A stretch of 49,635 nt of DNA from Burkholderiales bacterium (GCA_043775155.1 JAYVSR010000025.1:1-49635); one strand, 5' to 3'. Numbered from the stretch's first letter, positions 11,821 through 32,429 are shown. The notes: generated by a model not told the origin, from the letters alone. Made by a program: numbers and translations.

Positions 11821-13195
<1,375 letters not shown>

Positions 13196-13203
13196 AGGGG
13201 CGC

Positions 13204-14766
13204 ATGATGAAAAAACTGTTATCGATTTTGGGGCTTGCCGCTGTGCTGGGCGCAGGTAGCGTCATGGTACCGTTCGCCGGTAATGCAATGGCGCAGGACA
13301 AGGCGGCTCCGGCTGCTGAGATGAAGAAAGACGCTGCACCGGCTGCTGATGCGAAGAAAGATGCTGCGCCTGCCGCCGCTGGTGCTGCCGCACCTGCAGC
13401 CCCTGCCACCGCTGGCGCGGCACCGGCCGCAACCGCCACCCCTGCTCTCCCTGCACCGAACAAGGGCGACACGACCTTCATGTACATCGCCACCATCCTC
13501 GTCATCCTGATGACGATCCCCGGTTTGGCGCTGTTCTACGGCGGCTTGGTGCGCTCGAAGAACATGCTCTCAGTGCTGATGCAGGTGTTCGTCACCTTCT
13601 GCCTGATCGCGATTCTGTGGGTGATCTACGGTTACAGCATCGCCTTCACCGGCGGTAGCCCGTTCTTTGGCGGCTTCTCCAAGCTGTTTCTCGACACCGT
13701 GTCGCTAGACGGCGGCGGCGCGACTTTCTCCAAGGGCGTGTATATCCCCGAGATGATGTTCGCGCTGTTCCAGTTGACGTTTGCTGCGATCACGCCGTGC
13801 CTGATTGTCGGCGCGTTTGCCGAGCGGATGAAGTTCTCCGCTGTGCTGTGGTTCATGGCGCTGTGGTTTACCTTCGCCTATCTGCCGATGGCGCATATGG
13901 TGTGGTATTGGGATGGCCCGGACTCGATCAAGGACGCCGCCACTCTCAAATCAGTGACTGACGCAGCCGGCTGGCTGTGGGCCAAAGGCGCGCTCGACTT
14001 CGCCGGCGGCACCGTGGTGCATATCAACGCCGGTATCGCCGGTCTGGTCGCCGCGTTCGTGGTTGGCAAGCGGATTGGTTACGGCAAAGAAGCGATGACC
14101 CCGCACAGCCTGACGATGACGATGATCGGTGCTTGCTTGCTGTGGATCGGCTGGTTCGGTTTCAACGTTGGCTCGAACCTTGAAGCCAATGGCATCGCCG
14201 GGCTGGCCTTCGTCAATACGCTGGTTGCCACCGCAGCAGCAACATTGGCTTGGCTGTTTTTCGAGAATCTTCTCAAAGGCAAGCCCTCGATGTTGGGTGC
14301 AGCTTCGGGCGCCGTCGCTGGCCTGGTGGCGATTACTCCGGCTTGTGGCACGGTAGGTATCAAAGGCGCGTTGGTCATCGGCCTCGTTGCCGGCGGCTTG
14401 TGCCTGTGGGGTGTGACTGGTCTCAAGCGCATGCTCGGCGCCGACGACGCCCTCGACGTATTTGGCGTGCATGGTATTGGCGGCATCTGGGGCGCGATTG
14501 CCACTGGTATCTTCACCGCACCGTCGCTCGGCGGCCAAGGTCTGGTTGACTGGGTCAAAGGCGCAGCCTCGACCGACCCCTACGACATGATGGGCCAAGT
14601 GGTCATCCAGTTCTGGGCGATTGGCACTGCGGTCGTTCTGTCAGGCATCGTGTCCTTGGTCGCGCTCAAAGTGATCGACTTGGTGATTGGCCTGCGGGTG
14701 GCGGAAGACGAAGAACGCGAAGGTCTTGACCTGTCGTCGCACGGTGAGACTGCGTATCACATGTAA
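13204..14766 (+). CDS. amtB: ammonium transporter AmtB with a long Ala/Pro/Lys-rich N-terminal extension
   Basis: Core: FMYIATILVILMTIPGLALFYGGLVRSKN...AGGTVVHINAGIAGLVAAFVVGKR...DALDVFGVHGIGGIWGAIATG. About 55 residues of low complexity lie between the signal peptide and TM1. Confidence 0.95.
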   Translation: MMKKLLSILGLAAVLGAGSVMVPFAGNAMAQDKAAPAAEMKKDAAPAADAKKDAAPAAAGAAAPAAPATAGAAPAATATPALPAPNKGDTTFMYIATILVILMTIPGLALFYGGLVRSKNMLSVLMQVFVTFCLIAILWVIYGYSIAFTGGSPFFGGFSKLFLDTVSLDGGGATFSKGVYIPEMMFALFQLTFAAITPCLIVGAFAERMKFSAVLWFMALWFTFAYLPMAHMVWYWDGPDSIKDAATLKSVTDAAGWLWAKGALDFAGGTVVHINAGIAGLVAAFVVGKRIGYGKEAMTPHSLTMTMIGACLLWIGWFGFNVGSNLEANGIAGLAFVNTLVATAAATLAWLFFENLLKGKPSMLGAASGAVAGLVAITPACGTVGIKGALVIGLVAGGLCLWGVTGLKRMLGADDALDVFGVHGIGGIWGAIATGIFTAPSLGGQGLVDWVKGAASTDPYDMMGQVVIQFWAIGTAVVLSGIVSLVALKVIDLVIGLRVAEDEEREGLDLSSHGETAYHM

Positions 14767-22682: not shown

Positions 22683-23489
22683 ATGTCGTCCGCCGCCTCG
22701 AACTGCATCGCCGCCGTTCTGCTCGCCGGATTCGCCGGGTTTGCCAGTGGCCAGAATCAAAGCGCGCCGACCCCGCCGGCCGAACCCTACGCACCGCAAT
22801 CGGGACAGCCCGGAAAAGACGTCGTCTGGGTGCCGACGCCGCAAGTGGCTGTGGACAAGATGATGGAACTGGCCAAGGTCACCGCTGTCGATATCGTGAT
22901 CGATTTGGGATCGGGCGATGGCCGTACCGTCATCACCGCCGCCAAATTGGGCGCGCGCGCGATGGGCATCGAATACAACCCGGAGATGGTCGAACACGCG
23001 CGCCAGAACGCGGCGGCCGCAGGTGTGACGAAGAACGCCAGCTTCGTTAAAGCCGACTTGTTCGAGGCCGATTTCAGCGAGGCGACAGTGATCACGATGT
23101 TCCTGCTGCCAGACATCAATCTGCGTCTGCGGCCCAAACTGCTTGATCTCAAACCCGGCACTCGAATTGTCTCGAATACCTTCACCATGGGCGAATGGGA
23201 ACCGGATGCACAGGTCAATCTGTATGGCGACGCCGGGTGCGAGAACTCCTACTGCAAGGTGTTGTTCTGGCTGGTGCCGCAACGTGTGGCCGGCACTTAC
23301 GTCGTGCCACAGGGTGAAGTCACCTTAAAGCAAGAGTTTCAGATGCTCACCGGGACGCTCAAGACCGGTGGCACGACAGTGCAGGTGCAAGGGCGCGTAG
23401 CGGGCGGCGAGATTGAGATTTCAGCTGGCAGCAAGCGTTATCGCGGTCTCCTCAAGGGCCGCACGCTGGAGCTGCGCGACGCCGGCTAG
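22683..23489 (+). CDS. class I SAM-dependent methyltransferase with an N-terminal signal peptide
   Basis: IAAVLLAGFAGFASGQ (signal-like), then VIDLGSGDGRTVITAAKLGARAMGIEYNPEMV (motif I and post-I), VITMFLLPDIN, RIVSNTF. Confidence 0.75.
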   Translation: MSSAASNCIAAVLLAGFAGFASGQNQSAPTPPAEPYAPQSGQPGKDVVWVPTPQVAVDKMMELAKVTAVDIVIDLGSGDGRTVITAAKLGARAMGIEYNPEMVEHARQNAAAAGVTKNASFVKADLFEADFSEATVITMFLLPDINLRLRPKLLDLKPGTRIVSNTFTMGEWEPDAQVNLYGDAGCENSYCKVLFWLVPQRVAGTYVVPQGEVTLKQEFQMLTGTLKTGGTTVQVQGRVAGGEIEISAGSKRYRGLLKGRTLELRDAG

Positions 23490-23778: not shown

Positions 23779-25185
23779 TCAACCCGCCCTGCCAATCCGT
23801 TTCATCTCGCCCCATTGCCCTTGCTTGCCACGCAACCACTGCCACATGCCGCGCACGCGCCAAATCAGATTGATCTGGCGATAGCCAAAGTTTTCCAGAC
23901 AGGCAACGCCAAACAAAATCATCAGATCGGCCGGCTTCGGATTGATCCGGAACGCCATTTCGTCAAGCCATAACGACAGCGTCGAGAGCAGCATGCCGAA
24001 GCCGAACGCGGCGAGCAGCAACAGGAGCATGGTGTCCATGCGTACCGCACCGGCCAGGAACGCGTAGCCAAGCAGCAGGTAGCCGCCCATTTCCACCAGC
24101 GGCGAGGCCCACTCGAACAGGAGGAAATAGGGGAACGCAAGCCAGCCGGCCCGGCCACCGCGCCGGTGAAACAGCAGACGGCGGTTCAGCCACAAACTTT
24201 CACACAGGCCGCGCTGCCAACGGATGCGCTGGTTTCGCAGGGTTTTCAGGTCTTCCGGCGCTTCGGTCCAGCAGACCGGATCGGGGACGTAGGCGATCCT
24301 GTAGGGTATCCCGCGCGTGCTCAGATAGTGATGCATGCGTACGATCAGTTCCATATCTTCGCCGATCGTGTCGTTGCGGTAGCCACCGGCTGCCACTACG
24401 GTGTCTTTGTGCAGCAGACCGAAAGCGCCCGAAATGATCAACAGCGCGTCGAGGCTGGACCAGCCCATCCGCCCGAACAAAAAGGCGCGCACGTATTCGA
24501 CCGTCTGGAACAGCGCCAGCGGATGGCGTGGCAGGCGCGTCTCGACAATGTGGCCGTTCTGTACAGTGCAGCCGTTGCTCAAGCGGATGGTGCCGCCGCA
24601 GGCCACGGTGCGCGCGTCTTCGATGAACGGCTGCACCACCCGCAACAGGGCGTCGCGCTCCAACAGCGAGTCGGCATCGACACAGCAGAACAAGGGGTTG
24701 CGCGACGCGTTGATGCCAGCATTGATCGCGTCGGCCTTGCCGCCATTGACTTTGTCGACCACGCGCAATTGCGGGTAGGTGGTGGAGCGGTAGACGCCGC
24801 GCACCGCCTGGCTGGGCACGTGGAGCGGTACCACCTCGGGAAACGGCGTCAGACCGAAGGTCTTGGTCAAGGCATCAAGCGTCCCGTCTTTTGATCCGTC
24901 ATTGACCACCACCACTTCGTAGGCGGCATAGCGCAGTTGCAGCATCGAACGCACCGAGGCGACGATGGTCTGCTCCTCGTTGTACGCGGGCACGATGATG
25001 CTGACGGGCGGCTCGAACCCGGTAAGCAGAAACTCGCGCACCTCGGCGCGGCGGTAGCGCCGCTCGTAATTAATCCGTTTCCAGGTCAACAGGCTGATCA
25101 CCACCTGACAGCAGGTGTAGATCAGCAGATAGGCGAACAGGCCGCAGGTCAGCCAGTCGATCACGCCGGGCCAGAAGCTGTTCAT
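23779..25185 (-). CDS. processive family-2 glycosyltransferase (membrane-embedded polysaccharide synthase, PgaC/IcaA/BcsA-like core)
   Basis: N-terminal TM helices, then PVSIIVPAYNEE, VVVVNDGSKDGT, NGGKADAINAG, VDADS (DxD), GAFGLL, IGEDMEL, QRIRWQRG (QxxRW), then a bundle of 3-4 C-terminal TM helices. ATG 25185 overlaps the upstream stop (ATGA). Confidence 0.88.
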   Translation of the reverse strand: MNSFWPGVIDWLTCGLFAYLLIYTCCQVVISLLTWKRINYERRYRRAEVREFLLTGFEPPVSIIVPAYNEEQTIVASVRSMLQLRYAAYEVVVVNDGSKDGTLDALTKTFGLTPFPEVVPLHVPSQAVRGVYRSTTYPQLRVVDKVNGGKADAINAGINASRNPLFCCVDADSLLERDALLRVVQPFIEDARTVACGGTIRLSNGCTVQNGHIVETRLPRHPLALFQTVEYVRAFLFGRMGWSSLDALLIISGAFGLLHKDTVVAAGGYRNDTIGEDMELIVRMHHYLSTRGIPYRIAYVPDPVCWTEAPEDLKTLRNQRIRWQRGLCESLWLNRRLLFHRRGGRAGWLAFPYFLLFEWASPLVEMGGYLLLGYAFLAGAVRMDTMLLLLLAAFGFGMLLSTLSLWLDEMAFRINPKPADLMILFGVACLENFGYRQINLIWRVRGMWQWLRGKQGQWGEMKRIGRAG

Positions 25186-26456
25186 GTAGCCGGCTGCCAA
25201 GCGAATTCAGCCACCGCGAACGCCATCGCGTCGCGCGCAAAACGGTCCTCGATTTTCGCCAGCACGGCATCCAGCACCGCCTGATCGCCACGCGCCAGAC
25301 GCAGAATCGCCTGCGCGGCGCGATAGCGTACCCACCATTCCGGATCGCTGAGCAAGCGTCCTAGTACGTCAAGGTCTGGCGGCAGGCCGAGCATGCCCAG
25401 CGCATAAGCGGCATGCATCCGCACCACCCAGCGTTTGTCGGCAATCAAGCCCAAGGCGGTATCGCGATCTTCAGCGCTGCCCAGACGGCCGAGCGCGTGC
25501 AGCAACGCGCCGGTTTCGGCGTTGTCGCGATTGTTCGCCAGGCGCAGGCGCAGGGCCGGCACTGCGTGCAGGCTCTCGATCAATTCGAGCAGCCGGATCA
25601 CCGGGGTAGCCTGGCCAGCCGGGATCGCGGCCAGCGCTTGTTCGAGCGCCCGCCGGGTCGCGTCCGGATTGGCGGTAGCAGCCGCAGCCATCGCAGCGGG
25701 TGACCAGCCGCCGCGCAGCACCAGCGCACGAAAGCTCTGGCGCCCCTCTGCGGGGGCGATTTTCAGCAATGCTTCAGCGGCGGCCAGCGCCAGTTTCGGT
25801 GCGGCGTTTGCGGCCAAGCGCGCCAACGCTGACTCGATGCTGGCACCAGTGATCCCGAGCAGCGCTGCGGCACGAATGGCGAGCAGCAGTTGCCACGGGG
25901 CGGCGGTGGTGCTGCCGAGCAGCGCCAGAACACGGCGTTCCACCCCGAGTTCGGCGCCGGCCGAACGCAAGCCCTCTTCACCTTCGTCGCGCACATAGCC
26001 CGCCAAATGAAGCCATAGCAGCAGGAACCGTACTTCGTCGCCCCGCGCCAGCGCTGGCAGCGGTTCGCGGTCGCCCGCCATCCGGCCATGCAGTAGCGGC
26101 TCCCAGCGGGCGGCAAACCGGTCGCGCCGCGCACGCTCGCGCACACGCGCCCAGCGGGTCAGAAAGCCGGCCGCGAGAAACACCACGATCCAGCCAGCCA
26201 GGATCAAGTTTAGTCCGGCCAACCCGACAATAATGCTGGTGTCCGCAGCGGCACCGGCGGTGGCAAAGCGCAGCGGCGCATCGAGCACGGTCGTCAGCCA
26301 CGCCGGTGCTGCCCGCGCGGACACCGGGGCAGAAATCAGCAGGACTGCCGGCAGCGCCGCCGGCAGTCCCCCTGCGCGCCGCTTAAAAACGAAAGCGCAG
26401 CCCAAGGCTGAGCGACTCACGGGTGGTGGTGCCCTGGCGCGTGCGGCCGGCCCCAT
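25182..26456 (-). CDS. membrane-anchored HEAT-repeat protein
   Basis: TM helix IIVGLAGLNLILAGWIVVFLAAGFL followed by Ala/Leu-rich helical repeats, including the classic HEAT_2 units DKRWVVRMHAAYALGMLG and DPEWWVRYRAAQAILRL. The start is ambiguous: ATG 26456 overlaps the porin gene by 74 nt; TTG 26405, GTG 26420 and GTG 26324 are alternatives. Confidence 0.7.
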   Translation of the reverse strand: MGPAARARAPPPVSRSALGCAFVFKRRAGGLPAALPAVLLISAPVSARAAPAWLTTVLDAPLRFATAGAAADTSIIVGLAGLNLILAGWIVVFLAAGFLTRWARVRERARRDRFAARWEPLLHGRMAGDREPLPALARGDEVRFLLLWLHLAGYVRDEGEEGLRSAGAELGVERRVLALLGSTTAAPWQLLLAIRAAALLGITGASIESALARLAANAAPKLALAAAEALLKIAPAEGRQSFRALVLRGGWSPAAMAAAATANPDATRRALEQALAAIPAGQATPVIRLLELIESLHAVPALRLRLANNRDNAETGALLHALGRLGSAEDRDTALGLIADKRWVVRMHAAYALGMLGLPPDLDVLGRLLSDPEWWVRYRAAQAILRLARGDQAVLDAVLAKIEDRFARDAMAFAVAEFAWQPAT

Positions 26457-27828
26457 AAACCACGCCCCACTCCGGGCTTAAGGCGTGATGGCCGAACAGC
26501 GCTACGCTTTTTACATCCGTAGCGATGACAGTATTCGCGGCGCTCGGCCGGTCCACCTCGCGGCCGGCCGCGACGAGCACCTGCACTGAGCTCAGATCGG
26601 AATAAAAATAGCCGAACTGAAGCCGCTGTCCGACCGCATCGCCCGCCACTGACGAGCGGCTTGGGTTGATGGTCCATGCCGCGCGAAACGGGCCAAAGTA
26701 GCGCTCCACCGTGAGATCAAGCGTATCAATCGACGCGGTGTTGTACTTGAGACGCTTCCAGCCCGCTTGCAAGCCCCAGCCGTCGGGCAGCGACTGGCTG
26801 GCCTGGACGTGAAGGGTGTGCTGCGGCAGCACCTGATGGGTCGGGCTAACCGACACTTCGGCCCACATCGATGTCTTCGCCGCCACCGGGGTGTAGGCGG
26901 TTAAATGCATCTGCGTGTCCGAAATGCCGAAGCGGGTGACCGACGCGAGCCGGCCTTGCCAGCCGCGCTTACCCTCGAGTTGCTGGTGGTACTGCACGTA
27001 GGCATCGCGCCAGTCCGGCGTGCCGGTCGAGAGCGTTTCGCGCACGATGCCGGACTCTATCGAGCGCATCAACGGGGGTGGTACCAACGTTGCCGAAGCA
27101 GCCGCGGTTACCGCTGCGGTTACAGCCGCAGTTACAGCTACGGTACCCGCTACACCGGCCGCAGCGGGTGCCGTTGCGGGTGCCGTTGCGGGTGCCGTTG
27201 CGAGAACTGCGGCCGGCACTGCTGCTGCTACGACAGGTGCGGCCGGCTCCGCCGCGATGGCGGTCGCGCCGGGCGCGGGGTCCGGTGGTGCTGACCGGCC
27301 TGGCAGACTTGCTGGTGCATCGAGTGCGGCCAATCCCTGGCGTGCCCAATCGGGCTGATGGAAGCGGCGTAGCGCCCCTGCATAGAGAGTGCGCGCGTCG
27401 GCGGTGCGGCCGGTGGCGGCCAGCGCTTGCCCCAGAAATCGCTGGACATCCTGATACGCCGGGGCGATGCGCTGCGCCCGTTGCAGGGGTGCCAGCGCGC
27501 GCTTTGGGTCGTTGCCCCAGAGCCAGTTGCGGCCTTGACCCAGCAGGTAATCGGCGTTGTCCGGATAGACCGCGAGGATGCGCGCGTACTGGCGCGCCGC
27601 TTCACCGGTACGCCCTTGCTGCGAAAGCTGCTGCGCCAGTTGAAACACCAAATCGGCATCGTCCGGATCTTTTTTGAGGCGATCACGCAACGCCCTGACT
27701 TTCGCTTCCATCAGGCGTTGTTCTTCGGCAGTGGGCGCGCCGCAGGCTGGCTGCGCCAGCGCGGCCAACAGCGCAAATACCGCACTCGCCACGACACGGC
27801 GCTGAACGCTGCTCTGATCGCGCAACAC
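26383..27828 (-). CDS. outer-membrane protein: signal peptide + TPR domain + low-complexity linker + YaiO-family beta-barrel
   Basis: GTG start. Signal VVASAVFALLAALAQPA. TPR units (FQLAQQLSQQGRTGEAARQYARILAVYPDNADYL...). Linker with ATAPATAPATAP and AVTAAVTAAVTAA. The C-terminal 250 aa resemble E. coli YaiO as I remember it (GWKRLKYN...VERYFGPF..., terminal LSLGLRFRF). Confidence 0.8.
   Translation of the reverse strand: MLRDQSSVQRRVVASAVFALLAALAQPACGAPTAEEQRLMEAKVRALRDRLKKDPDDADLVFQLAQQLSQQGRTGEAARQYARILAVYPDNADYLLGQGRNWLWGNDPKRALAPLQRAQRIAPAYQDVQRFLGQALAATGRTADARTLYAGALRRFHQPDWARQGLAALDAPASLPGRSAPPDPAPGATAIAAEPAAPVVAAAVPAAVLATAPATAPATAPAAAGVAGTVAVTAAVTAAVTAAASATLVPPPLMRSIESGIVRETLSTGTPDWRDAYVQYHQQLEGKRGWQGRLASVTRFGISDTQMHLTAYTPVAAKTSMWAEVSVSPTHQVLPQHTLHVQASQSLPDGWGLQAGWKRLKYNTASIDTLDLTVERYFGPFRAAWTINPSRSSVAGDAVGQRLQFGYFYSDLSSVQVLVAAGREVDRPSAANTVIATDVKSVALFGHHALSPEWGVVYGAGRTRQGTTTRESLSLGLRFRF
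27104..27199. repeat. two blocks of 12-bp tandem repeats inside the porin linker
   Basis: 27104-27151: four imperfect units GCGGTTACCGCT-like. 27164-27199: three perfect units GCGGGTGCCGTT. Confidence 0.85.
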
Positions 27829-27838
27829 TATTCCCGTC

Positions 27839-28213
27839 TCAGCCCAGGGCTTTACGCACGCGCGCGACCAACTCTACCGGCCGAAACGGCTTGATCAAGT
27901 AATCGCAGGCACCGCCTTCGAGGCCGCGCACCACGTCCTGTTCGCGTGCCATGCTGCTCAACATCAGCACTGGCACGTCGCGCCAGGCGGCGCGGCTGCG
28001 CATGCTGGCCAGCAGTTCAAAACCGTTGTGATAAGGCATCATGACATCGAGAATCACCAGATCGGGAATCGCGCCACTCTCAAACTCAAGCATGCCCTGT
28101 TCACCATCGGCAATCAGGCGCACGATGAAGCCTTCACGGGCAAGCTTGAACTCGATCAGCTTTGCCATGTCCGGATCGTCGTCGATCACAAGAATGGTTT
28201 TTGTCGGATGCAT
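27839..28213 (-). CDS. stand-alone CheY-like receiver (single-domain response regulator)
   Basis: 124 aa. ILVIDDDPD (acidic pocket), LVILDVMMP (phospho-Asp), VLMLSS, YLIKPF. No output domain. The stop is 10 nt before the porin start. Confidence 0.9.
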   Translation of the reverse strand: MHPTKTILVIDDDPDMAKLIEFKLAREGFIVRLIADGEQGMLEFESGAIPDLVILDVMMPYHNGFELLASMRSRAAWRDVPVLMLSSMAREQDVVRGLEGGACDYLIKPFRPVELVARVRKALG

Positions 28214-28280
28214 GCTGCAAGGCTCGCCGGATTTCCATTCCCGCAGTTCACACGCCGGGCTGGCTTACGCCTGGCGGCGG

Positions 28281-28315
28281 GTCAATTTGACTGACGTTGT
28301 CGGGGCAGTTAATTT
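28281..28315 (+). promoter_or_regulatory. palindrome overlapping a candidate promoter in the divergent control region
   Basis: GTCAA-T-TTGAC (28281-28291). TTGACT (28287-28292), 17-nt spacer, TAATTT (28310-28315). Confidence 0.4.
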
Positions 28316-28425
28316 ACCTACTCGCAATGATTCTATCTCATCGAACCTGCAGGGCCAGACGCATCGGCTGGCAAATTCCCCCAATGCCGTCAAATCGGGC
28401 ATCGCGCGCGGCGGGGGATCGAACG

Positions 28426-29916
28426 ATGCCCGATAATCCGCCATTCGTTCGCAGTTGGCGGACAGCATTGGGTGCCGTCATGATTCAAAAACATCGGAAT
28501 ACCAAATTTGGCATCGCCGGGCTGGCAGTCTGCGCCGCCGCAGTGGTCGGCTGGTGGTGGTTTTTCGGTATGTCGCGAGAGCAAACTGCCGAGCTCGTCA
28601 GTGTTCAGGGCGCGATCAACATCGACGGCGCAGCAGTCACAGAACCGGGATGGAAAGGGCCGGCCAAGGGCCGCCAGATTGCCGCCGGCGCGGACGGTTT
28701 TGCGACGATCCGCTTGGCCGATGGCAGCCTGACGCAGTTAACCCCTGGTACCCGCCTCACGGTGGCGGCGGCGCGCCAGAGTGCCGATGGCACGCAATTC
28801 CGGGTTGATCTCAAGCTCGATGGGGGCGAAGTGTTGCGCGATGTGCCGTCCCCGGCGCCGGGTGTGACACGTGAGTCGAATTTGGTCACGCCGGTCGCAA
28901 ACATTGGTGTGCGCGGTACTTACTACCTGGTGCGCAGCGACGCCGGTGCCAGCCGCGTGATGGTGCATCGTGGCGCGGTGGTGCTGGGCAACGGCGCAGA
29001 TGCCGCCAAACTAACGGAAAACTACGGCACCGTCGCCGCCTTGGCGAAGGCCCCCGAGCCGCCCAGCGTGTTGTTGCCGCCACCGGGCTTGGCCGAACCG
29101 GCGGGGTCGCAGCAACAAACTGCCGCTGCGATTCAATTCACATGGCAGGTGGTGCCGCAGGCGAAAGCCTATGTCCTTGAGATCGCGCGCGACGCGCAGT
29201 TTCGCGATCTGGTGTTGCGGCAACGGGCCAGCCTGCCGACGGTTTCGCTCACTGCGCCACTCCCGCATGATGCGCGCTTTTATTGGCGCGTTGCTTCGCT
29301 TGACGGGCGCGATCTACTCGGGCGCGGCTCGGAGCCGCGTCTGATGCATTACAAATATTTTCATACGGCCGGCAAAGCGCGGGTAAAAACCGGTGATGCG
29401 AAAGGCGCGCTCGAGTTGTATCAGCGCGCCGAGACCGGCTACAACAGCGACCCCGTATTGCTCAAGGAAATTGGCTGGGCCCACTATCTGGCGTCGAATC
29501 TGCCGGCGGCGCGCACCTACTTTGACCGCGCGATTACGCTCGACGGCACCGACCTTGAAGCACGGATTCAACGCGGCCGCGTGCTGTATTGGCTCAAAGA
29601 CTTGGCAGCAGCACAGGCGGACTACGACAAGGTGCTGGCCACCGCTCCCGATGATCTCGATGCGGTGTGGGGCTTGGCAGAGGTAGAGCGCGCGCAGGGC
29701 CGCCAGATTGAAGCGCTGGCCCATCTTGACCGCGTGCTGGCCAAGTTTCCGCAACACGAATATGCGTTGTTCGGTGCCGCGCAGGCGGCGCTGGCCCTCG
29801 GCCAAAAAGACCGCGCGCGCGAATTGCTGGCGCGCGAACTCAAGCTGCGGCCCGCTCACGCCAACGCCGCCGCGCTGTACAGCCAGTTGCAGCGTAAACC
29901 GCTGCCGCCGGAATAG
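28426..29916 (+). CDS. FecR-domain / TPR protein, single-pass membrane
   Basis: ATG 28426 with GGGGGA Shine-Dalgarno. TM FGIAGLAVCAAAVVGWWWFF. FecR-like beta-sandwich (GFATIRLADGSLTQLTPGTRLTV...GEVLRDV...IGVRGTYYLV...VHRGAVVL). Ig-like segment (IQFTWQVVPQAKAYVLEIARDAQF...YWRVASLD). Four or more TPRs at the C-terminus. Confidence 0.8.
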   Translation: MPDNPPFVRSWRTALGAVMIQKHRNTKFGIAGLAVCAAAVVGWWWFFGMSREQTAELVSVQGAINIDGAAVTEPGWKGPAKGRQIAAGADGFATIRLADGSLTQLTPGTRLTVAAARQSADGTQFRVDLKLDGGEVLRDVPSPAPGVTRESNLVTPVANIGVRGTYYLVRSDAGASRVMVHRGAVVLGNGADAAKLTENYGTVAALAKAPEPPSVLLPPPGLAEPAGSQQQTAAAIQFTWQVVPQAKAYVLEIARDAQFRDLVLRQRASLPTVSLTAPLPHDARFYWRVASLDGRDLLGRGSEPRLMHYKYFHTAGKARVKTGDAKGALELYQRAETGYNSDPVLLKEIGWAHYLASNLPAARTYFDRAITLDGTDLEARIQRGRVLYWLKDLAAAQADYDKVLATAPDDLDAVWGLAEVERAQGRQIEALAHLDRVLAKFPQHEYALFGAAQAALALGQKDRARELLARELKLRPAHANAAALYSQLQRKPLPPE

Positions 29917-29918
29917 CG

Positions 29919-32429
29919 ATGCCGATGTTCAACCGCTATGCCTGGCGCGGCGCAGCCCTCGCGCTGGCCGGCGTGGTGTTTACTGCGCTGGCGGCGCTGC
30001 TGCCGGTGTCGCAGCAGATCGATCTTGCGCTCGGTGACGCACTCGCCCGGCTGACTGCGCCGTCGGTGGATCTGCGGGACAGCGTGGTCGTCGATGTCGA
30101 TGAAGAGTCGATGCGTCTGCTGGCCCCGCAACTCGGTGCCTGGCCGTATGACCGCGACGTCTATGCGCTGGTGAACCGCTATTTGCTCGATGCCGGCGCG
30201 GCTGTGGTGACTTACGACATTTTGTTTTCCGAAGCCCGCCGCGGCGACGATGCGTTCGCAGCCACACTCAATCAGAAGGTGGTGTTGGCGGCAGTCGCGC
30301 TGCCGCAGAATGGCGTGGCGCGCGATGCCGCGTATCAACGCCGGCTGGCGGCGGCCGCTTGGGCGGGTGCAGCAGACTGGCCAGCCCAGGCATGGGATGA
30401 CATGACACTGCCGCTGGAAATATTCAGCGCGCGCGCACAAACCGGTGTGATCAGTGTATTGCCTGACGCCGATGGCGTGCTGCGCAGTGTGCCGCTGCTG
30501 CACCGGATTCAGGGGCAGGTGCTGCCCAGCGCAGCCCTGGCCGGGTTGCGCGCCGCCGGTGTGACGGTACAGACCGATCCGGCCGGGGGCAGTGTGACGG
30601 CCGGCGCGACGCGCCTGCCGGTCGATCAAGCCGGGCGGGTCAGGCTGCGCTACCCGAATGAATTTCGCGGGTTGCGGGTGCTGCCGTTTTATCAGGTAGC
30701 GCTGGCCGCCAGCGGCGCGCGTCAGTATGCACAGATGGGCGCTTCGCTGCGCGGCAAGCTGGTGCATGTCGGGAGTTCCAGCGCGGTGCTGGGCGACTTC
30801 ATCCAGTCGCCGGTTGGCCGCATGGCCGGCGTGTTTTTGGTCGGGCTGTTACCGGCCATGCTCAAAGATGGCTTGGTGCTAACGCCGCGCCACTGGTTCT
30901 CCGACGGCATCTTGATGCTTGCAGTGCTGGCGCTGGCGCTAGCGGCGGCGCATCCGCGCGCGCAGAACCTGGTCTGGGTGCAGGTGTTGGCGCTGCCGGT
31001 CTTGCTGCTGGCGGTCGCGGCGGCGGTGACCGGCCTCAATGCAGCCGGACGCGGCTCGGCGGTGCTGCTGCCCGCCCTGCTCGGCACCTTTATTCATTTG
31101 TCTGCCGTGTTCTGGCGCCAGGTGCATTTGTTTCGCAAGAGCCAGCAACTGCTGCTCGAAAAACTCGCCGCCGAAGATGCGGCGCGGCTCAAGAGCCAAT
31201 TTTTGTCGCACATGACGCACGAGCTGCGCACCCCGCTCACTGCGATCATGGGCTTCAACAACATCAATTGGCACAGCGATGACCTCGGGCGCGCCCAGCG
31301 TACCGGCAACAGCGAGGTGATCGACCGCAATGGCCGCCACCTGATGGCGCTGATCAACAACATTCTCGATCAGGCCAAGCTCGAAGCCGGGCAGGTGCGC
31401 ATCATGATGCAGCCCGAAGCGGTGCGCGCGGTAGTCGACGATGTGGTCGCCTCGCTGCAGCCGCTGGTGCGGGATAAACCGGTGCTGCTTTCGGCCGAGT
31501 ATGCCGCCAGCGTACCCGAGGCGCTCGAGCTCGACGCGTTCCGCCTGCGTCAAATTTTGCTCAACCTGACCAGCAACGCGATCAAATTTACCGAGCGCGG
31601 CAGCGTCGTGCTCAAGGTTGACTGGGCCGCTGACCGGCTGTCGATCGCGGTGGCGGACACCGGCTCCGGGTTGAGCCCTGAAGGCCTGGCGCGGCTATTC
31701 GTCGCATTTCAGCAGGCCGACGACAAGGTCGCGTCGACCCACGGCGGCACCGGACTCGGCCTGACCATCAGCCGCGACCTGGCGACGCTGATGCAAGGCG
31801 AGATCACGGTGACCTCGGAGCTGGCGGTGGGCACGGTGTTTACTTTGCGGATTGCCGCGCCGCTGGCGCAGCTGGCAGCGGCTGATGCGCTGGCAGACCC
31901 ACTGAACTCCGCATCCAACAGCGCATCAAGTACCGGTTTGAACGCCGCCGTGGGTACCTCAAAGTCCCCCCCGGCCAGCGCGGCGGGTGCCGGTGCGGCT
32001 GGGGCCTCGCTTGGGGCAGCAGCAGGGCCGGCAGTGCCAGAGGTGGCAACCCTCCACGGCACCGTGTTGCTCGCTGAAGATACGCCCGACCTGCGCAGTC
32101 TCGCCGTGATGTACCTGAAGCGTCTCGGCCTTGACGTGATTGAAGCGGTCAACGGCCAGGAGGCGGTTGATCTGGCGTTGCTCCATCGTCCCGACGCGAT
32201 ATTGATGGACCTCGAAATGCCGGTATTGCACGGCCTCGAAGCGGTCAAACAGTTACGCGGGCGCGGCTTTGGCGGCCCGATCCTGGCGATGACCGCGCAT
32301 ACCGGCGACGACCAGCGCGCACTGGCGCTGGCGGCCGGCTGCAACGATATGCTGTCCAAGCCGGTGTCGCGCACGGGCTTGCGCACGGCACTCGACGGCG
32401 TGCTCAGCGCCCAGCGGCGCGCGAGTTGA
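29919..32429 (+). CDS. CHASE2-sensor hybrid histidine kinase (CHASE2-TM-HisKA-HATPase-REC)
   Basis: VVVDVDEESMRLLAPQLGAWPYDRDVYALVNRYLLDAGAAVVTYDILFSE (CHASE2). TM bundle. FLSHMTHELRTPLTAIMGF (H-box). NLTSNAIKFT (N-box). DTGSGL, GGTGLGLTISRD (G-boxes). Ala/Ser/Gly linker. REC (VLLAEDTPD...AILMDLEMP...ILAMTAH). Starts 2 nt after the FecR gene stop. Confidence 0.9.
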   Translation: MPMFNRYAWRGAALALAGVVFTALAALLPVSQQIDLALGDALARLTAPSVDLRDSVVVDVDEESMRLLAPQLGAWPYDRDVYALVNRYLLDAGAAVVTYDILFSEARRGDDAFAATLNQKVVLAAVALPQNGVARDAAYQRRLAAAAWAGAADWPAQAWDDMTLPLEIFSARAQTGVISVLPDADGVLRSVPLLHRIQGQVLPSAALAGLRAAGVTVQTDPAGGSVTAGATRLPVDQAGRVRLRYPNEFRGLRVLPFYQVALAASGARQYAQMGASLRGKLVHVGSSSAVLGDFIQSPVGRMAGVFLVGLLPAMLKDGLVLTPRHWFSDGILMLAVLALALAAAHPRAQNLVWVQVLALPVLLLAVAAAVTGLNAAGRGSAVLLPALLGTFIHLSAVFWRQVHLFRKSQQLLLEKLAAEDAARLKSQFLSHMTHELRTPLTAIMGFNNINWHSDDLGRAQRTGNSEVIDRNGRHLMALINNILDQAKLEAGQVRIMMQPEAVRAVVDDVVASLQPLVRDKPVLLSAEYAASVPEALELDAFRLRQILLNLTSNAIKFTERGSVVLKVDWAADRLSIAVADTGSGLSPEGLARLFVAFQQADDKVASTHGGTGLGLTISRDLATLMQGEITVTSELAVGTVFTLRIAAPLAQLAAADALADPLNSASNSASSTGLNAAVGTSKSPPASAAGAGAAGASLGAAAGPAVPEVATLHGTVLLAEDTPDLRSLAVMYLKRLGLDVIEAVNGQEAVDLALLHRPDAILMDLEMPVLHGLEAVKQLRGRGFGGPILAMTAHTGDDQRALALAAGCNDMLSKPVSRTGLRTALDGVLSAQRRAS

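What the first reader, a model, noticed from the sequence alone, without database searches (positions are those of the whole stretch)
23779..28213. Uncharacterised YaiO-type synthase-dependent exopolysaccharide operon headed by a stand-alone receiver
Four same-strand genes are packed with almost no spacing. (1) A single-domain CheY-like receiver (27839-28213), whose stop is 10 nt before the next gene. (2) An outer-membrane protein (26383-27828) built from a signal peptide, TPR repeats, an Ala/Pro/Thr/Val linker and a C-terminal YaiO-like beta-barrel ending LRFRF. (3) A HEAT-repeat protein with one N-terminal TM helix, whose start abuts or overlaps the porin stop. (4) After an ATGA overlap, a multi-TM family-2 glycosyltransferase with the full processive-synthase signature (VNDGS, VDADS, GEDMEL, QRIRWQRG). 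This pairing of an inner-membrane synthase with a TPR-porin is the logic of the Pga, Bcs, Alg and Nfr systems. The usual accessories are absent from what I can read: no PilZ, GGDEF/EAL, MshEN or PelD-like c-di-GMP receptor; no PgaB/BcsZ-type periplasmic enzyme; no PgaD/BcsB; no Wzx/Wzy/ABC exporter. Instead the operon opens with a receiver domain and faces a FecR/CHASE2 hybrid kinase pair. That suggests the synthase is switched by phosphorylation, with the receiver and/or the HEAT protein docking on the GT. From memory, E. coli yaiO (the family founder) also lies beside an unstudied GT2 (yaiP), so YaiO+GT2 may be a widespread unstudied pathway. I know of no characterised representative of the RR / TPR-YaiO / HEAT / GT2 arrangement.
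Basis: partly seen in the sequence, partly recalled or inferred. Interest (0 to 1): 0.8.

Follow-up and report, generated by a model that had tools for sequence, protein, structure and literature searches.

The report
Receiver-linked HEAT/GT2 exopolysaccharide secretion operon
This four-gene operon appears to encode an unstudied but very widespread machine for making and exporting a sugar polymer, in which the membrane synthase is always paired with a HEAT-repeat membrane protein and usually with a phosphorylation-switch protein rather than the usual c-di-GMP sensor.

Summary
Four tightly packed minus-strand genes encode a stand-alone receiver with a phospho-accepting Asp, a signal-peptide/TPR/YaiO-barrel protein, a single-TM HEAT-repeat protein, and a 468-aa GT2 with D/DAD/GEDMEL/QRIRW motifs. 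The GT2's predicted fold best matches hyaluronan, chitin and cellulose synthases.

The GT2 is not an orthologue of any characterised synthase I could test: 27% identity to E. coli PgaC, and all NCBIfam hits fall far below cut-off. No PilZ, GGDEF, EAL or MshEN domain is present.

In 80 species genomes from about 15 phyla or classes, the HEAT gene accompanied the GT2 in 77 of 77 testable loci. A receiver lay directly upstream in at least 64. A YaiO barrel occurred in about 35, all in bacteria with an outer membrane and none in Clostridia, Rubrobacter or Actinomycetes. The exact RR-YaiO-HEAT-GT2 order occurred in 26.

So the invariant core is HEAT+GT2. The receiver is a near-constant regulator and YaiO is the outer-membrane module of some diderm lineages. 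The kinase partner varies.

Phospho-control of the synthase through the HEAT protein is the best reading but remains inferred. The polymer is unknown. A link to Xanthomonas xagABCD could not be tested. I judge this a new variant of synthase-dependent exopolysaccharide secretion.

The parts
27839..28213 (-). Stand-alone receiver (124 aa) of the OmpR/PhoB-like type, with the DDD pocket, phospho-acceptor D56 and K108. First gene of the operon.
   Evidence: Pfam Response_reg E = 7e-26, with no other domain. The best NCBIfam matches are the receiver halves of MtrA and PhoB. Across receiver domains taken from 69 related loci, D56 is conserved in 94% and K108 in 100%. Operon-linked receivers score a median 89 bits against the window receiver, versus 33 bits for other REC domains in the same loci.
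26383..27828 (-). Outer-membrane protein (481 aa). Signal peptide at about 27736-27828. TPR region, residues about 35-165, at about 27334-27726. Ala/Pro/Thr/Val linker at about 27079-27333. YaiO-type beta-barrel, residues about 251-481, at 26386-27078, ending in LRFRF.
   Evidence: PF19413 YaiO E = 1.5e-16. TIGR04390 scores 108.6 bits against a cut-off of 32. Several TPR models also match. There is an N-terminal hydrophobic segment. About 13 alternating-hydrophobicity segments were found in an alignment of 35 YaiO domains. The linker holds tandem repeats.
26341..26370 (-). A 13-bp GC-rich hairpin just after the OMP stop codon. It is intergenic if the HEAT gene starts at the GTG at 26324. It may be an intra-operon attenuator or an mRNA-stability element.
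   Evidence: Found by the terminator-like scan. The 76-nt stretch around it (26315-26390) folds at -41.6 kcal/mol, z = -2.3. It is not conserved in L087 or L088, so its significance is unclear.
25182..26324 (-). Inner-membrane HEAT-repeat protein (380 aa from the GTG at 26324; alternative starts lie up to 26456). One N-terminal TM helix is followed by an Arg-rich stretch, so the solenoid is predicted to be cytoplasmic. It has about 9 HEAT-like repeats and the family signature DPEWWVRYRAAQA...DRFARD.
   Evidence: HEAT_2 E = 6e-12. TM segment at residues 25-59. The AlphaFold2 model has pLDDT 92.9, with a long helix 29-82 and an alpha-solenoid 94-376. Only generic solenoid matches were found in the PDB. 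The family has 2025 representatives at E <= 1e-30, nearly all about 350 aa and stand-alone. It is present in 77 of 77 testable GT2 loci.
23779..25185 (-). Membrane-integrated processive family-2 glycosyltransferase (468 aa). It has one N-terminal TM helix, a cytoplasmic GT-A domain (NDGS, DAD, GEDMEL, QRIRW) and a C-terminal bundle of TM and interface helices. Its start overlaps the HEAT stop codon (ATGA).
   Evidence: Pfam Glycos_transf_2, Glyco_tranf_2_3 and Glyco_trans_2_3 all match. The AlphaFold2 model has pLDDT 88.6. The best fold matches are hyaluronan synthases (TM about 0.67), then chitin synthases and BcsA. Identity to E. coli PgaC is 27%. All NCBIfam hits fall below cut-off.
28214..28296 (.). 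An 83-bp divergent intergenic region between the receiver gene and the FecR/TPR gene. It presumably holds the promoters of both transcription units.
   Evidence: Sequence. No sigma-70 consensus match was found, so the promoters are not identified.
28297..32429 (+). Divergent candidate sensory module: a FecR+TPR protein (28297-29916) and a CHASE2-HisKA-HATPase-REC hybrid histidine kinase (29919-32429).
   Evidence: Pfam. The same divergent pair occurs in the close relative L088, and the FecR/TPR gene alone in L087. The pair is not conserved in more distant loci. No Hpt protein was detected in the window.

Best explanation
The operon encodes a trans-envelope, synthase-dependent polysaccharide secretion system of a so far uncharacterised type.

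- **Synthase.** The GT2 sits in the inner membrane. It polymerises a UDP-sugar on its cytoplasmic face and threads the chain through its own TM channel, as hyaluronan, chitin, cellulose and PNAG synthases do.
- **HEAT protein.** Its obligatory partner is the single-TM HEAT protein. I infer that its TM helix packs against the synthase and that its cytoplasmic alpha-solenoid acts as a docking and gating platform. In this it would be a functional analogue of PgaD or of the BcsA PilZ module, not a homologue.
- **Receiver.** The stand-alone receiver is phosphorylated on D56 by a lineage-specific sensor kinase. Here the candidate is the neighbouring CHASE2 hybrid kinase with its FecR/TPR accessory, probably acting through an Hpt protein encoded elsewhere. 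I infer that the phosphorylated receiver binds the HEAT solenoid and/or the synthase and switches polymerisation on. Phosphorylation would thus replace c-di-GMP as the post-translational signal.
- **Outer-membrane protein.** In the periplasm the TPR domain receives the chain, and the YaiO barrel passes it across the outer membrane.

**Shown here:** domain content, motifs, predicted folds, membrane topology signals, and cross-phylum synteny.

**Inferred:** physical contacts, the direction of control, pore function, and the polymer. The polymer is most likely a simple homopolymer of a common UDP-sugar, since no precursor or modification genes are linked in the window.
For: **Synthase.** The GT2 has the full processive-synthase motif set. 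It gives a confident model whose best structural neighbours are HAS, chitin synthases and BcsA.

**HEAT-GT2 coupling.**
- The two genes overlap translationally (ATGA).
- HEAT was found in 77 of 77 testable loci, spanning Proteobacteria, Nitrospirota, Acidobacteriota, Gemmatimonadota, Bacteroidota, Myxococcota, Clostridia and Rubrobacter.
- The HEAT TM helix is followed by a strongly basic stretch, which places the solenoid in the cytoplasm with the GT domain and the receiver.

**Receiver.**
- A receiver lies directly upstream in at least 64 loci.
- These receivers form a coherent group, with a median of 89 bits against 33 bits for other REC domains in the same loci.
- The phospho-acceptor Asp is conserved in 94% and the Lys in 100%.
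- Sensor kinases, Hpt proteins and extra receivers of varied types flank the cassette in other genomes.
- The four proteins contain no c-di-GMP-binding or other known regulatory domain.

**Outer-membrane module.** YaiO barrels occur only in diderm lineages and in none of the five monoderm loci. They are often fused to TPR repeats, as in PgaA, BcsC and PelB.

**Genomic setting.** Housekeeping genes surround the operon and no other EPS genes are nearby.
Against: - No interaction, phosphorylation, product or phenotype has been measured.
- No HEAT-REC or HEAT-GT2 fusion protein was seen that would prove contact.
- Xanthomonadales and Sulfuricaulis loci lack the receiver altogether, yet keep the conserved HEAT motifs. 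The receiver is therefore dispensable for the machine itself.
- In Gemmatimonadota and Myxococcota the orthologous REC is the C-terminal domain of REC-(degenerate GGDEF)-REC proteins. This hints that nucleotide signalling may take part.
- The neighbouring kinase is a hybrid and no Hpt protein was found in the window.
- Many diderm loci show no YaiO within 6 kb.
- A domain of about 230 aa is small for a polysaccharide porin.
Confidence: 0.55

Rival explanations
1. The HEAT protein, or the HEAT-GT2 interface, is itself a receptor for c-di-GMP or another small ligand, so the system is nucleotide-controlled like other synthase-dependent systems. The receiver would only feed into that signal or fine-tune it.
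For: - Receiver-less variants exist that keep all conserved HEAT residues.
- In several phyla the receiver orthologue is fused to GGDEF-like domains.
- The juxtamembrane region of the HEAT protein is Arg-rich, and R57 is invariant.
- In the Pga system c-di-GMP binds at a PgaC-PgaD interface that has no recognisable domain (established knowledge: Steiner et al. 2013).
Against: - The fused GGDEF domains are degenerate (GGDDF, GGGDF, AGGEF, GGGKF), so they probably do not make c-di-GMP.
- No PilZ, MshEN or I-site-type domain was detected.
- No GGDEF or EAL domain was found in the four operon proteins or in the roughly 30 other larger ORFs of the window that were scanned against Pfam.
Confidence: 0.2
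2. The receiver does not touch the synthase. It is a phosphorelay intermediate, a phosphate sink, or a connector that controls expression or another process, and it is merely co-transcribed. The HEAT protein would be a structural co-subunit only.
For: - Many loci carry several receivers, Hpt proteins and hybrid kinases next to the cassette, which is typical of multi-step relays.
- The window kinase is a hybrid and no Hpt protein lies nearby.
Against: - The receiver keeps a fixed position directly upstream of (YaiO-)HEAT-GT2 across distant phyla while the kinases change.
- It has no DNA-binding or enzymatic output domain.
- It forms a distinct orthologous group.
Confidence: 0.2
3. The GT2/HEAT pair does not make a secreted exopolysaccharide. 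It glycosylates a membrane lipid, or makes a periplasmic or cell-wall-associated glycan, and YaiO has an unrelated role.
For: - Some relatives are auto-annotated as monoglucosyl-diacylglycerol synthase-like (for xagB-like genes).
- HEAT-GT2 occurs without any detectable porin in many diderm loci.
- The YaiO barrel is small.
Against: - The QRIRW and GEDMEL motifs, and a HAS/chitin-synthase/BcsA-like TM architecture, are typical of processive, translocating synthases.
- The fusion of TPR repeats to an OM barrel in the same operon is the hallmark of polymer export.
- YaiO is absent exactly where there is no outer membrane.
Confidence: 0.1
4. The operon is a receiver-equipped orthologue of the Xanthomonas xagABCD biofilm-polysaccharide operon. 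If so, it is already genetically characterised, though not biochemically.
For: - Xanthomonadales relatives (Stenotrophomonas, Lysobacter) carry HEAT-GT2-TPR/YaiO followed by a fourth gene. This matches the published A-B(GT2)-C-D gene order.
- xag mutants lose biofilm polysaccharide (PMC3609779).
Against: - No Xanthomonas protein appeared among the 120 best relatives of the Stenotrophomonas GT2, although Dyella, Rhodanobacter, Lysobacter and Thermomonas did.
- The published 'xagB-like' Sfz2 proteins are about 690 aa, with an N-terminal T2SS-E/MshEN-like domain and a BcsB-like partner. That is a different architecture.
- In a published table of KEGG and COG assignments, XagA is given no COG, whereas a HEAT protein would be expected to receive one (weak evidence).
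Confidence: 0.15

Closest known systems
PgaABCD / HmsHFRS / IcaADBC poly-beta-1,6-GlcNAc systems
   Same: - An inner-membrane GT2 synthase; PgaC is the closest characterised relative tested (27% identity over 349 aa, E = 6e-34).
- The synthase needs a small membrane partner (PgaD).
- A TPR + beta-barrel outer-membrane exporter (PgaA).
- Post-translational activation.
   Different: - The GT2 scores far below the PgaC_IcaA cut-off (136 vs 422 bits).
- The partner is a 380-aa HEAT solenoid protein, not PgaD.
- There is no PgaB deacetylase.
- The porin is of YaiO type and shows no similarity to PgaA.
- A receiver stands in place of c-di-GMP.
Class I hyaluronan synthases, chitin synthases, BcsA (structural neighbours)
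   Same: The predicted fold of the GT2 matches these membrane-integrated processive synthase-translocases (TM about 0.5-0.68). It shares the D, DxD, ED and QxxRW motifs.
   Different: - Sequence identity is only 14-18%.
- There is no PilZ domain and no BcsB.
- HAS works alone, whereas this GT2 is never found without the HEAT protein.
E. coli yaiS-yaiP-yaiX-yaiO operon (founder of the YaiO family, unstudied)
   Same: A YaiO-type outer-membrane barrel is encoded in one operon with a membrane GT2. No functional literature was found.
   Different: - YaiP is only 24% identical and has RWRRW instead of QRIRW.
- Its partners are a deacetylase and an acyltransferase, not a HEAT protein and a receiver.
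- YaiO there has no TPR domain.
- BLASTP detects no similarity between the two barrels; they are linked only through the family profiles.
NfrA/NfrB/YbcH exopolysaccharide system of E. coli
   Same: The logic is the same: a GT2 synthase plus a TPR-containing outer-membrane protein, with local signal control.
   Different: - NfrB carries a C-terminal MshEN c-di-GMP domain, which is absent here.
- Sequence similarity is negligible.
Xanthomonas xagABCD (KEGG K20326-K20328)
   Same: A four-gene, GT2-centred operon needed for biofilm polysaccharide. Xanthomonadales relatives of the window system have the same A-B(GT2)-C-D layout.
   Different: Homology could not be tested because no Xanthomonas sequence was reachable. 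Indirect evidence points to a different GT2 architecture. No receiver gene is named among xagA-D in the papers read.

Membership tests
Synthase-dependent exopolysaccharide secretion systems (Bcs, Pga, Alg, Pel, Nfr kind) | An inner-membrane processive glycosyltransferase that also forms the translocation channel. | tested here: met
   GT2 domains plus the NDGS, DAD, GEDMEL and QRIRW motifs. The AlphaFold2 model best matches HAS, Chs and BcsA. Activity was not measured.
Synthase-dependent exopolysaccharide secretion systems (Bcs, Pga, Alg, Pel, Nfr kind) | An outer-membrane beta-barrel porin coupled to periplasmic TPR repeats. | tested here: met
   Signal peptide, TPR repeats and a YaiO barrel in one protein. 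Pore function and barrel size were not modelled.
Synthase-dependent exopolysaccharide secretion systems (Bcs, Pga, Alg, Pel, Nfr kind) | A c-di-GMP receptor domain or subunit (PilZ, PelD-type GGDEF I-site, MshEN, or the PgaCD interface). | tested here: not met
   No such domain in the four proteins at E <= 0.01. An unrecognised site on HEAT or GT2 cannot be excluded.
PgaABCD (PNAG) | The GT2 reaches the PgaC_IcaA equivalog score (TIGR03937, 422 bits). | tested here: not met
   136 bits. Identity to E. coli PgaC is 27%.
PgaABCD (PNAG) | PgaD, the PgaB deacetylase and the PgaA porin are present. | tested here: not met
   None was detected in the operon or its neighbours. The OMP shows no BLAST similarity to PgaA.
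Nfr system | The GT2 is fused to an MshEN domain, and an NfrA-type OMP is present. | tested here: not met
   No MshEN domain. Only spurious short matches to NfrB and NfrA.
YaiO family outer-membrane beta-barrel (TIGR04390 / PF19413) | Scores above the curated cut-offs across the whole domain. | tested here: met
   TIGR04390 scores 108.6 bits against 32, covering profile positions 9-230 of 230. PF19413 scores 61.4 bits against 23.9.
Two-component receiver domains (phosphorylatable) | An acidic pocket, a phospho-acceptor Asp, a conserved Ser/Thr and a conserved Lys. | tested here: met
   D11-D13, D56, S86/S87 and K108 are present in the sequence. D56 is conserved in 94% and K108 in 100% of operon-linked orthologues. 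Phosphorylation itself is not testable here.
HEAT (PBS-lyase-type) repeat proteins | An alpha-solenoid of paired-helix repeats that matches HEAT_2. | tested here: met
   HEAT_2 E = 6e-12. The AlphaFold2 solenoid has pLDDT 92.9. It matches alphaRep/PBS-HEAT structures.
Xanthomonas XagABCD | Orthology of the GT2 to XagB and of the flanking genes to XagA and XagC. | not testable with these tools
   No Xanthomonas sequence could be fetched. An Xoc xagB primer gave no metagenome hit. Indirect evidence leans against orthology.

The most novel reading that the evidence does not exclude
This would be a fifth architectural class of synthase-dependent polysaccharide secretion. It would be present in well over a thousand protein clusters across most bacterial phyla, including monoderms. 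In it a membrane-anchored HEAT solenoid is the obligatory co-subunit of the synthase. A phosphorylated stand-alone receiver, not c-di-GMP, would be the allosteric on-switch, which would give two-component systems direct, transcription-independent control of matrix production.
Probability: 0.35. Interest if true: 0.8.

Novelty: new variant of a known kind. Interest (0 to 1): 0.62.

Why it matters
Synthase-dependent exopolysaccharides (cellulose, PNAG, alginate, Pel) are central to biofilms. Textbooks describe them as switched on post-translationally by c-di-GMP.

This cassette would add a large, phylogenetically broad family:
- about 2000 HEAT-partner clusters at 50% identity;
- GT2 relatives in Nitrospira, Burkholderiales, Xanthomonadales, Stutzerimonas, Halomonas, Gemmatimonadota, Acidobacteriota, Bacteroidota, Myxococcota, Clostridia and Rubrobacter.

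It has a new obligatory co-subunit, a new type of outer-membrane exporter and apparently a different control logic. The family includes environmentally important groups, among them nitrifiers and soil and wastewater bacteria, whose matrix polymers are poorly known. It also gives a first functional context to the YaiO family.

Cultured hosts carry the cassette: Stutzerimonas kunmingensis and S. marianensis, Massilia suwonensis, Luteimonas deserti and Clostridium caldaquaticum. The hypothesis is therefore directly testable.

Tried and rejected
1. **Orthology to known synthases.** NCBIfam, PDB sequence search and direct BLAST against E. coli PgaC, NfrB and YaiP gave only distant similarity. Orthology is rejected.
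2. **Link to Xanthomonas xagABCD.** I read five papers that mention xag genes and extracted the Xoc primers. I then searched with a Stenotrophomonas GT2 to pull in Xanthomonas proteins, looked up the unnamed clusters and scanned the metagenomes with an xagB primer. No Xanthomonas sequence was obtained, so the link is untested.
3. **Functional clue from the HEAT protein's structure.** Only designed alphaRep, importin, AP2 and PP2A solenoids matched. This was uninformative beyond showing a protein-binding scaffold.
4. **Rosetta-stone fusions of HEAT with REC or GT2.** None was found among the top 150 representatives. Three of the longer ones and one of ordinary length, checked against Pfam, carry only HEAT domains.
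5. **An Hpt protein in the window, to connect the hybrid kinase to the receiver.** No hit was found, but the phmmer search used only two seeds and has low sensitivity.
6. **Promoter and terminator scan of the operon.** No sigma-70-like promoter was found, and terminator-like hits were at the chance level apart from one strong hairpin.
7. **Conservation of that hairpin in close relatives.** It is not conserved.
8. **Literature on YaiO, yaiP, HEAT+GT2 and HEAT+PgaC.** There is nothing functional.

Full report
**1. What is in the window**

Four ORFs on the minus strand occupy 23779-28213. Their translations and profile searches give the following.

- **Receiver, 27839-28213.** A 124-aa protein that is nothing but a receiver domain (Response_reg E = 7e-26). 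It has the acidic pocket D11-D13, the phospho-acceptor D56 and K108.
- **Outer-membrane protein, 26383-27828.** A 481-aa protein with an N-terminal signal-like hydrophobic segment and TPR repeats at about residues 40-162.
  - A low-complexity Ala/Pro/Thr/Val linker carries 12- and 24-nt tandem repeats.
  - The C-terminal YaiO domain passes both curated models: PF19413 at 61 bits against 24, and TIGR04390 at 109 bits against 32 over the full profile.
  - The protein ends in LRFRF, an aromatic C-terminus typical of barrels assembled by BAM (established knowledge).
- **HEAT-repeat protein.** It has one TM helix followed by RWARVRERARRDR. By the positive-inside rule this puts the solenoid in the cytoplasm.
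- **GT2, 23779-25185.** A 468-aa protein with NDGS, DAD, GEDMEL and QRIRW.

The receiver stop codon is 10 nt from the OMP start. The HEAT stop and the GT2 start overlap as ATGA. The HEAT start is ambiguous: ATG at 26456, GTG at 26420 (the collection's 412-aa gene call) or GTG at 26324. Homologue lengths (about 350 aa) favour 26324. That choice leaves a 58-nt spacer holding a 13-bp GC hairpin.

**2. Surroundings**

Divergently transcribed from an 83-bp spacer are two genes:
- a FecR+TPR protein (28297-29916);
- a CHASE2-HisKA-HATPase-REC hybrid kinase (29919-32429).

Downstream of the GT2 the strand changes, at a methyltransferase gene (22683-23489, + strand). The rest of the window is ordinary Burkholderiales-like housekeeping: TctC/Bug receptors, GshA/GshB, MetX/MetW, PtsP, Paa genes, an ammonium transporter and an MFS transporter.

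It contains no sugar-nucleotide, Wzx/Wzy, ABC-exporter or polymer-modifying genes. The only REC domains in the 49.6 kb are the stand-alone receiver and the one in the hybrid kinase. No Hpt protein was detected (low sensitivity).

**3. The GT2**

The family is very large. A word-indexed search saturated at 8000 hits, and the named hits carry only generic names such as 'glycosyltransferase family 2'.

- The best NCBIfam model is PgaC_IcaA at 136 bits, far below its 422-bit cut-off.
- Direct comparison gives 27% identity to E. coli PgaC, 24% to E. coli YaiP, and almost nothing to NfrB.
- No solved structure is a close sequence relative.
- An AlphaFold2 model built on 66 homologues is confident (pLDDT 88.6, pTM 0.89).
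- Its best PDB neighbours are Chlorella-virus and Xenopus hyaluronan synthases (TM about 0.67 over about 480 columns). Chitin synthases and BcsA follow.

This places the enzyme among the membrane-integrated, processive, self-translocating beta-glycan synthases. It is not an orthologue of any characterised one I could test. The sugar cannot be read from the sequence.

**4. The HEAT protein**

A profile of 24 homologues (alignment A2) shows a family signature, DPEWWVRYRAAQAL followed by DRFARD. R57 in the juxtamembrane helix is invariant.

The AlphaFold2 model is very confident (pLDDT 92.9). It has a 54-residue helix (TM plus cytoplasmic extension) and then about nine HEAT-like repeats.

Sequence and fold searches against the PDB return only designed alphaRep proteins, importins, AP2 and the PP2A-A subunit. 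All are protein-binding scaffolds, and none has a known role in glycan synthesis.

An exhaustive profile search of 1.84 billion cluster representatives found 2025 proteins at E <= 1e-30. The best 150 are almost all stand-alone proteins of about 350 aa aligned end to end. No fusions to REC or GT2 were seen.

**5. Conservation of the arrangement**

Three look-ups already showed the pattern:
- RR-YaiO-HEAT-GT2 in Massilia sp. TS11;
- the same order in an unrelated MAG;
- 3xRR-HEAT-GT2 with an Hpt protein and a giant hybrid kinase in a Nitrospiraceae genome.

A scan of one genome per species (GTDB) with the GT2 profile returned 80 loci at 44-60% identity. They came from Beta-, Gamma-, Alpha- and Deltaproteobacteria, Nitrospirota, Nitrospinota, Acidobacteriota, Gemmatimonadota, Bacteroidota/Rhodothermales/Ignavibacteria, Myxococcota, Lentisphaeria, Neomarinimicrobiota, Clostridia, Rubrobacter and Actinomycetes.

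I translated all ORFs of these loci and searched them with the window proteins and with iterated HMMs. The results were as follows.

- **HEAT.** The gene is present in 77 of the 77 loci that include upstream DNA. It lies directly upstream of the GT2 on the same strand in 72.
- **Receiver.** A receiver lies directly upstream of HEAT, or of YaiO-HEAT, in at least 64.
- **Exact order.** RR-YaiO-HEAT-GT2 occurs in 26 loci.
- **YaiO.** A strong hit lies within 6 kb in about 35.
  - It lies between the receiver and HEAT genes in most Proteobacteria and some Acidobacteriota.
  - It lies downstream of the GT2 in Xanthomonadales and Sulfuricaulis.
  - None was found in the five monoderm loci (Clostridia L063 and L085; Rubrobacter L076 and L079; Actinomycetes L074). 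This is a natural control supporting an outer-membrane role.
- **Receiver conservation.**
  - The operon-linked receivers score a median 89 bits against the window receiver. Other REC domains in the same loci score a median of 33 bits.
  - In an alignment of receiver domains from 69 of the loci, the phospho-acceptor Asp is conserved in 94% and the Lys in 100%.
- **Kinases.** They are not conserved. CHASE2, CHASE3-PAS, dCache-PAS, PAS/GAF hybrids and Hpt proteins all appear. The FecR/CHASE2 pair recurs only in the closest relatives (77-79% GT2 identity).

**6. Variants that bear on mechanism**

Stenotrophomonas, Lysobacter and Sulfuricaulis carry HEAT-GT2-TPR/YaiO with no receiver. In Stenotrophomonas ginsengisoli an 809-aa multi-TM sulfatase-family protein and a 315-aa secreted protein follow. 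The HEAT signature is intact there. The receiver is therefore a regulatory add-on and not part of the machine.

In Gemmatimonadota and Myxococcota the orthologous REC is the C-terminal domain of larger proteins. These are REC-GGDEF-REC or REC-REC, and their GGDEF motifs are degenerate: GGDDF, GGGDF, AGGEF, GGGKF.

One close relative has REC-guanylate-cyclase and REC-Ser/Thr-kinase genes right after the GT2. Signalling input is thus diverse, but it always converges on a receiver next to HEAT-GT2.

**7. Most likely mechanism**

*Shown:* a processive synthase fold; a cytoplasmic solenoid anchored by one TM helix that is never separated from the synthase gene; a phosphorylatable receiver with no output domain fixed next to them; and a TPR-barrel protein found only in organisms with an outer membrane.

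*Inferred:*
- the HEAT protein is a stoichiometric co-subunit, playing a role analogous to PgaD or the BcsA PilZ module;
- the phosphorylated receiver docks on the solenoid and/or the GT domain to open or stabilise the active complex;
- the TPR domain and the YaiO barrel guide the chain out.

My estimates of likelihood for each step are:

| Claim | Estimated probability |
|---|---|
| GT2 is a processive synthase-translocase with an obligatory HEAT partner | about 0.85 |
| YaiO is the exporter | about 0.65 |
| The receiver acts post-translationally on the complex | about 0.45 |

The rivals are listed separately with their tests: a cryptic nucleotide receptor in HEAT or GT2; the receiver as a mere relay component; a non-secreted product; and orthology to xag.

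**8. Comparison with what is known**

Functionally this belongs with the synthase-dependent systems (Bcs, Pga, Alg, Pel, Nfr). It is not a member of any of them.
- The PgaC equivalog threshold is missed.
- PgaB and PgaD, BcsB and PilZ, and MshEN are all absent.
- The porin is of a different family.

E. coli K-12 does encode yaiO in an operon with a GT2, yaiS-yaiP-yaiX(IS2-disrupted)-yaiO. However, YaiP is a different GT2 clade, and that operon has neither a HEAT protein nor a receiver.

Literature searches found YaiO only as a PCR marker and as a predicted barrel of the E. coli OMP-ome. Nothing was found on yaiP or on HEAT-GT2 systems.

The one characterised system that might be related is Xanthomonas xagABCD, which is needed for biofilm polysaccharide (PMC3609779). 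I could not obtain any Xanthomonas sequence. The published 'xagB-like' Sfz2 proteins of iron oxidisers have an N-terminal T2SS-E/MshEN-like domain and a BcsB-like partner (PMC8250860). This argues for a different system, but the question stays open.

**9. Verdict**

The feature is real, conserved and, as far as I could establish, uncharacterised. It is best called a new variant of synthase-dependent polysaccharide secretion. It is defined by a HEAT-repeat co-subunit, is usually headed by a dedicated receiver, and is equipped with a YaiO-type porin in many Proteobacteria.

It needs re-centring on HEAT-GT2 rather than on YaiO, and the phospho-switch remains a hypothesis. Interest is moderate to high: a specialist would not be astonished by another GT2 operon. 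What makes it a worthwhile target is the breadth of the family, the invariant new partner and the apparent replacement of c-di-GMP by a receiver. It is also directly testable in cultured hosts.

Noticed in passing
window 26341-26370 (- strand): A strong 13-bp GC hairpin lies immediately after the OMP stop codon and before the probable GTG start of the HEAT gene. The 76-nt stretch around it (26315-26390) folds at -41.6 kcal/mol, z = -2.3. It could lower expression of HEAT and GT2 relative to the receiver and OMP. It is not conserved in two close relatives.
   Followed up: partly
window 27099-27202: Perfect and near-perfect 12-nt and 24-nt tandem repeats encode the ATAP and AVTA repeats of the linker between the TPR and barrel domains. 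The linker length may be variable.
   Followed up: no
window 25182-26456: The start of the HEAT gene is ambiguous. The collection's gene call gives 412 aa, overlapping the OMP gene, whereas homologue lengths (about 350 aa) favour the GTG at 26324 (380 aa).
   Followed up: partly
window 29919-32429 and the whole window: The neighbouring CHASE2 kinase is a hybrid (it has its own REC domain). No Hpt protein was found anywhere in the 49.6 kb, so the phosphotransfer route to the stand-alone receiver is unexplained.
   Followed up: partly
L049:12779-16152 (Stenotrophomonas ginsengisoli): In the receiver-less Xanthomonadales variant, the TPR-YaiO gene is followed by an 809-aa multi-TM sulfatase-family protein. 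This resembles BcsG or OpgB-type transferases and is a possible polymer-modifying enzyme. A 315-aa secreted protein with no Pfam match comes next.
   Followed up: partly
L057:2692-4164, L060:7132-8901, L053, L077, L084:6812-8758: In Gemmatimonadota and Myxococcota, the receiver orthologue is the C-terminal domain of REC-GGDEF-REC proteins. Their GGDEF motifs are degenerate (GGDDF, GGGDF, AGGEF, GGGKF).
   Followed up: partly
L088:11458-13901: In a close relative (77% GT2 identity), the GT2 gene is followed directly by a REC-guanylate/adenylate-cyclase gene and a REC-Ser/Thr-kinase gene. A second PAS/GAF kinase lies beyond the CHASE2 kinase.
   Followed up: no
L086:4070-8617 (E. coli K-12 380069-384616): The E. 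coli founder operon yaiS-yaiP-yaiX-yaiO encodes a deacetylase, a GT2, an acyltransferase and a barrel. In K-12 it is disrupted by IS2 in yaiX, which may be one reason it has never shown a phenotype.
   Followed up: partly
L006, L015, L019, L023, L029, L038, L039 (Nitrospira): In Nitrospira the RR-HEAT pair is separated from the matched GT2 by 2-7 kb, or lies on the other strand. A large TPR protein on the opposite strand lies between them and gives weak YaiO-profile hits. This may be a different porin type or a rearranged locus.
   Followed up: no
L018 (contig labelled MAG: Klebsiella pneumoniae): A complete RR-TPR/YaiO-HEAT-GT2 cassette, 53% identical in the GT2, sits on a contig binned as Klebsiella pneumoniae. 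This looks like a mis-binned contig.
   Followed up: no
window 11821-12687: A Gcw_chp family protein (PF09694, function unknown) is encoded about 500 bp upstream of an ammonium-transporter gene (13204-14766), with another ORF between them. It is unrelated to the finding.
   Followed up: no
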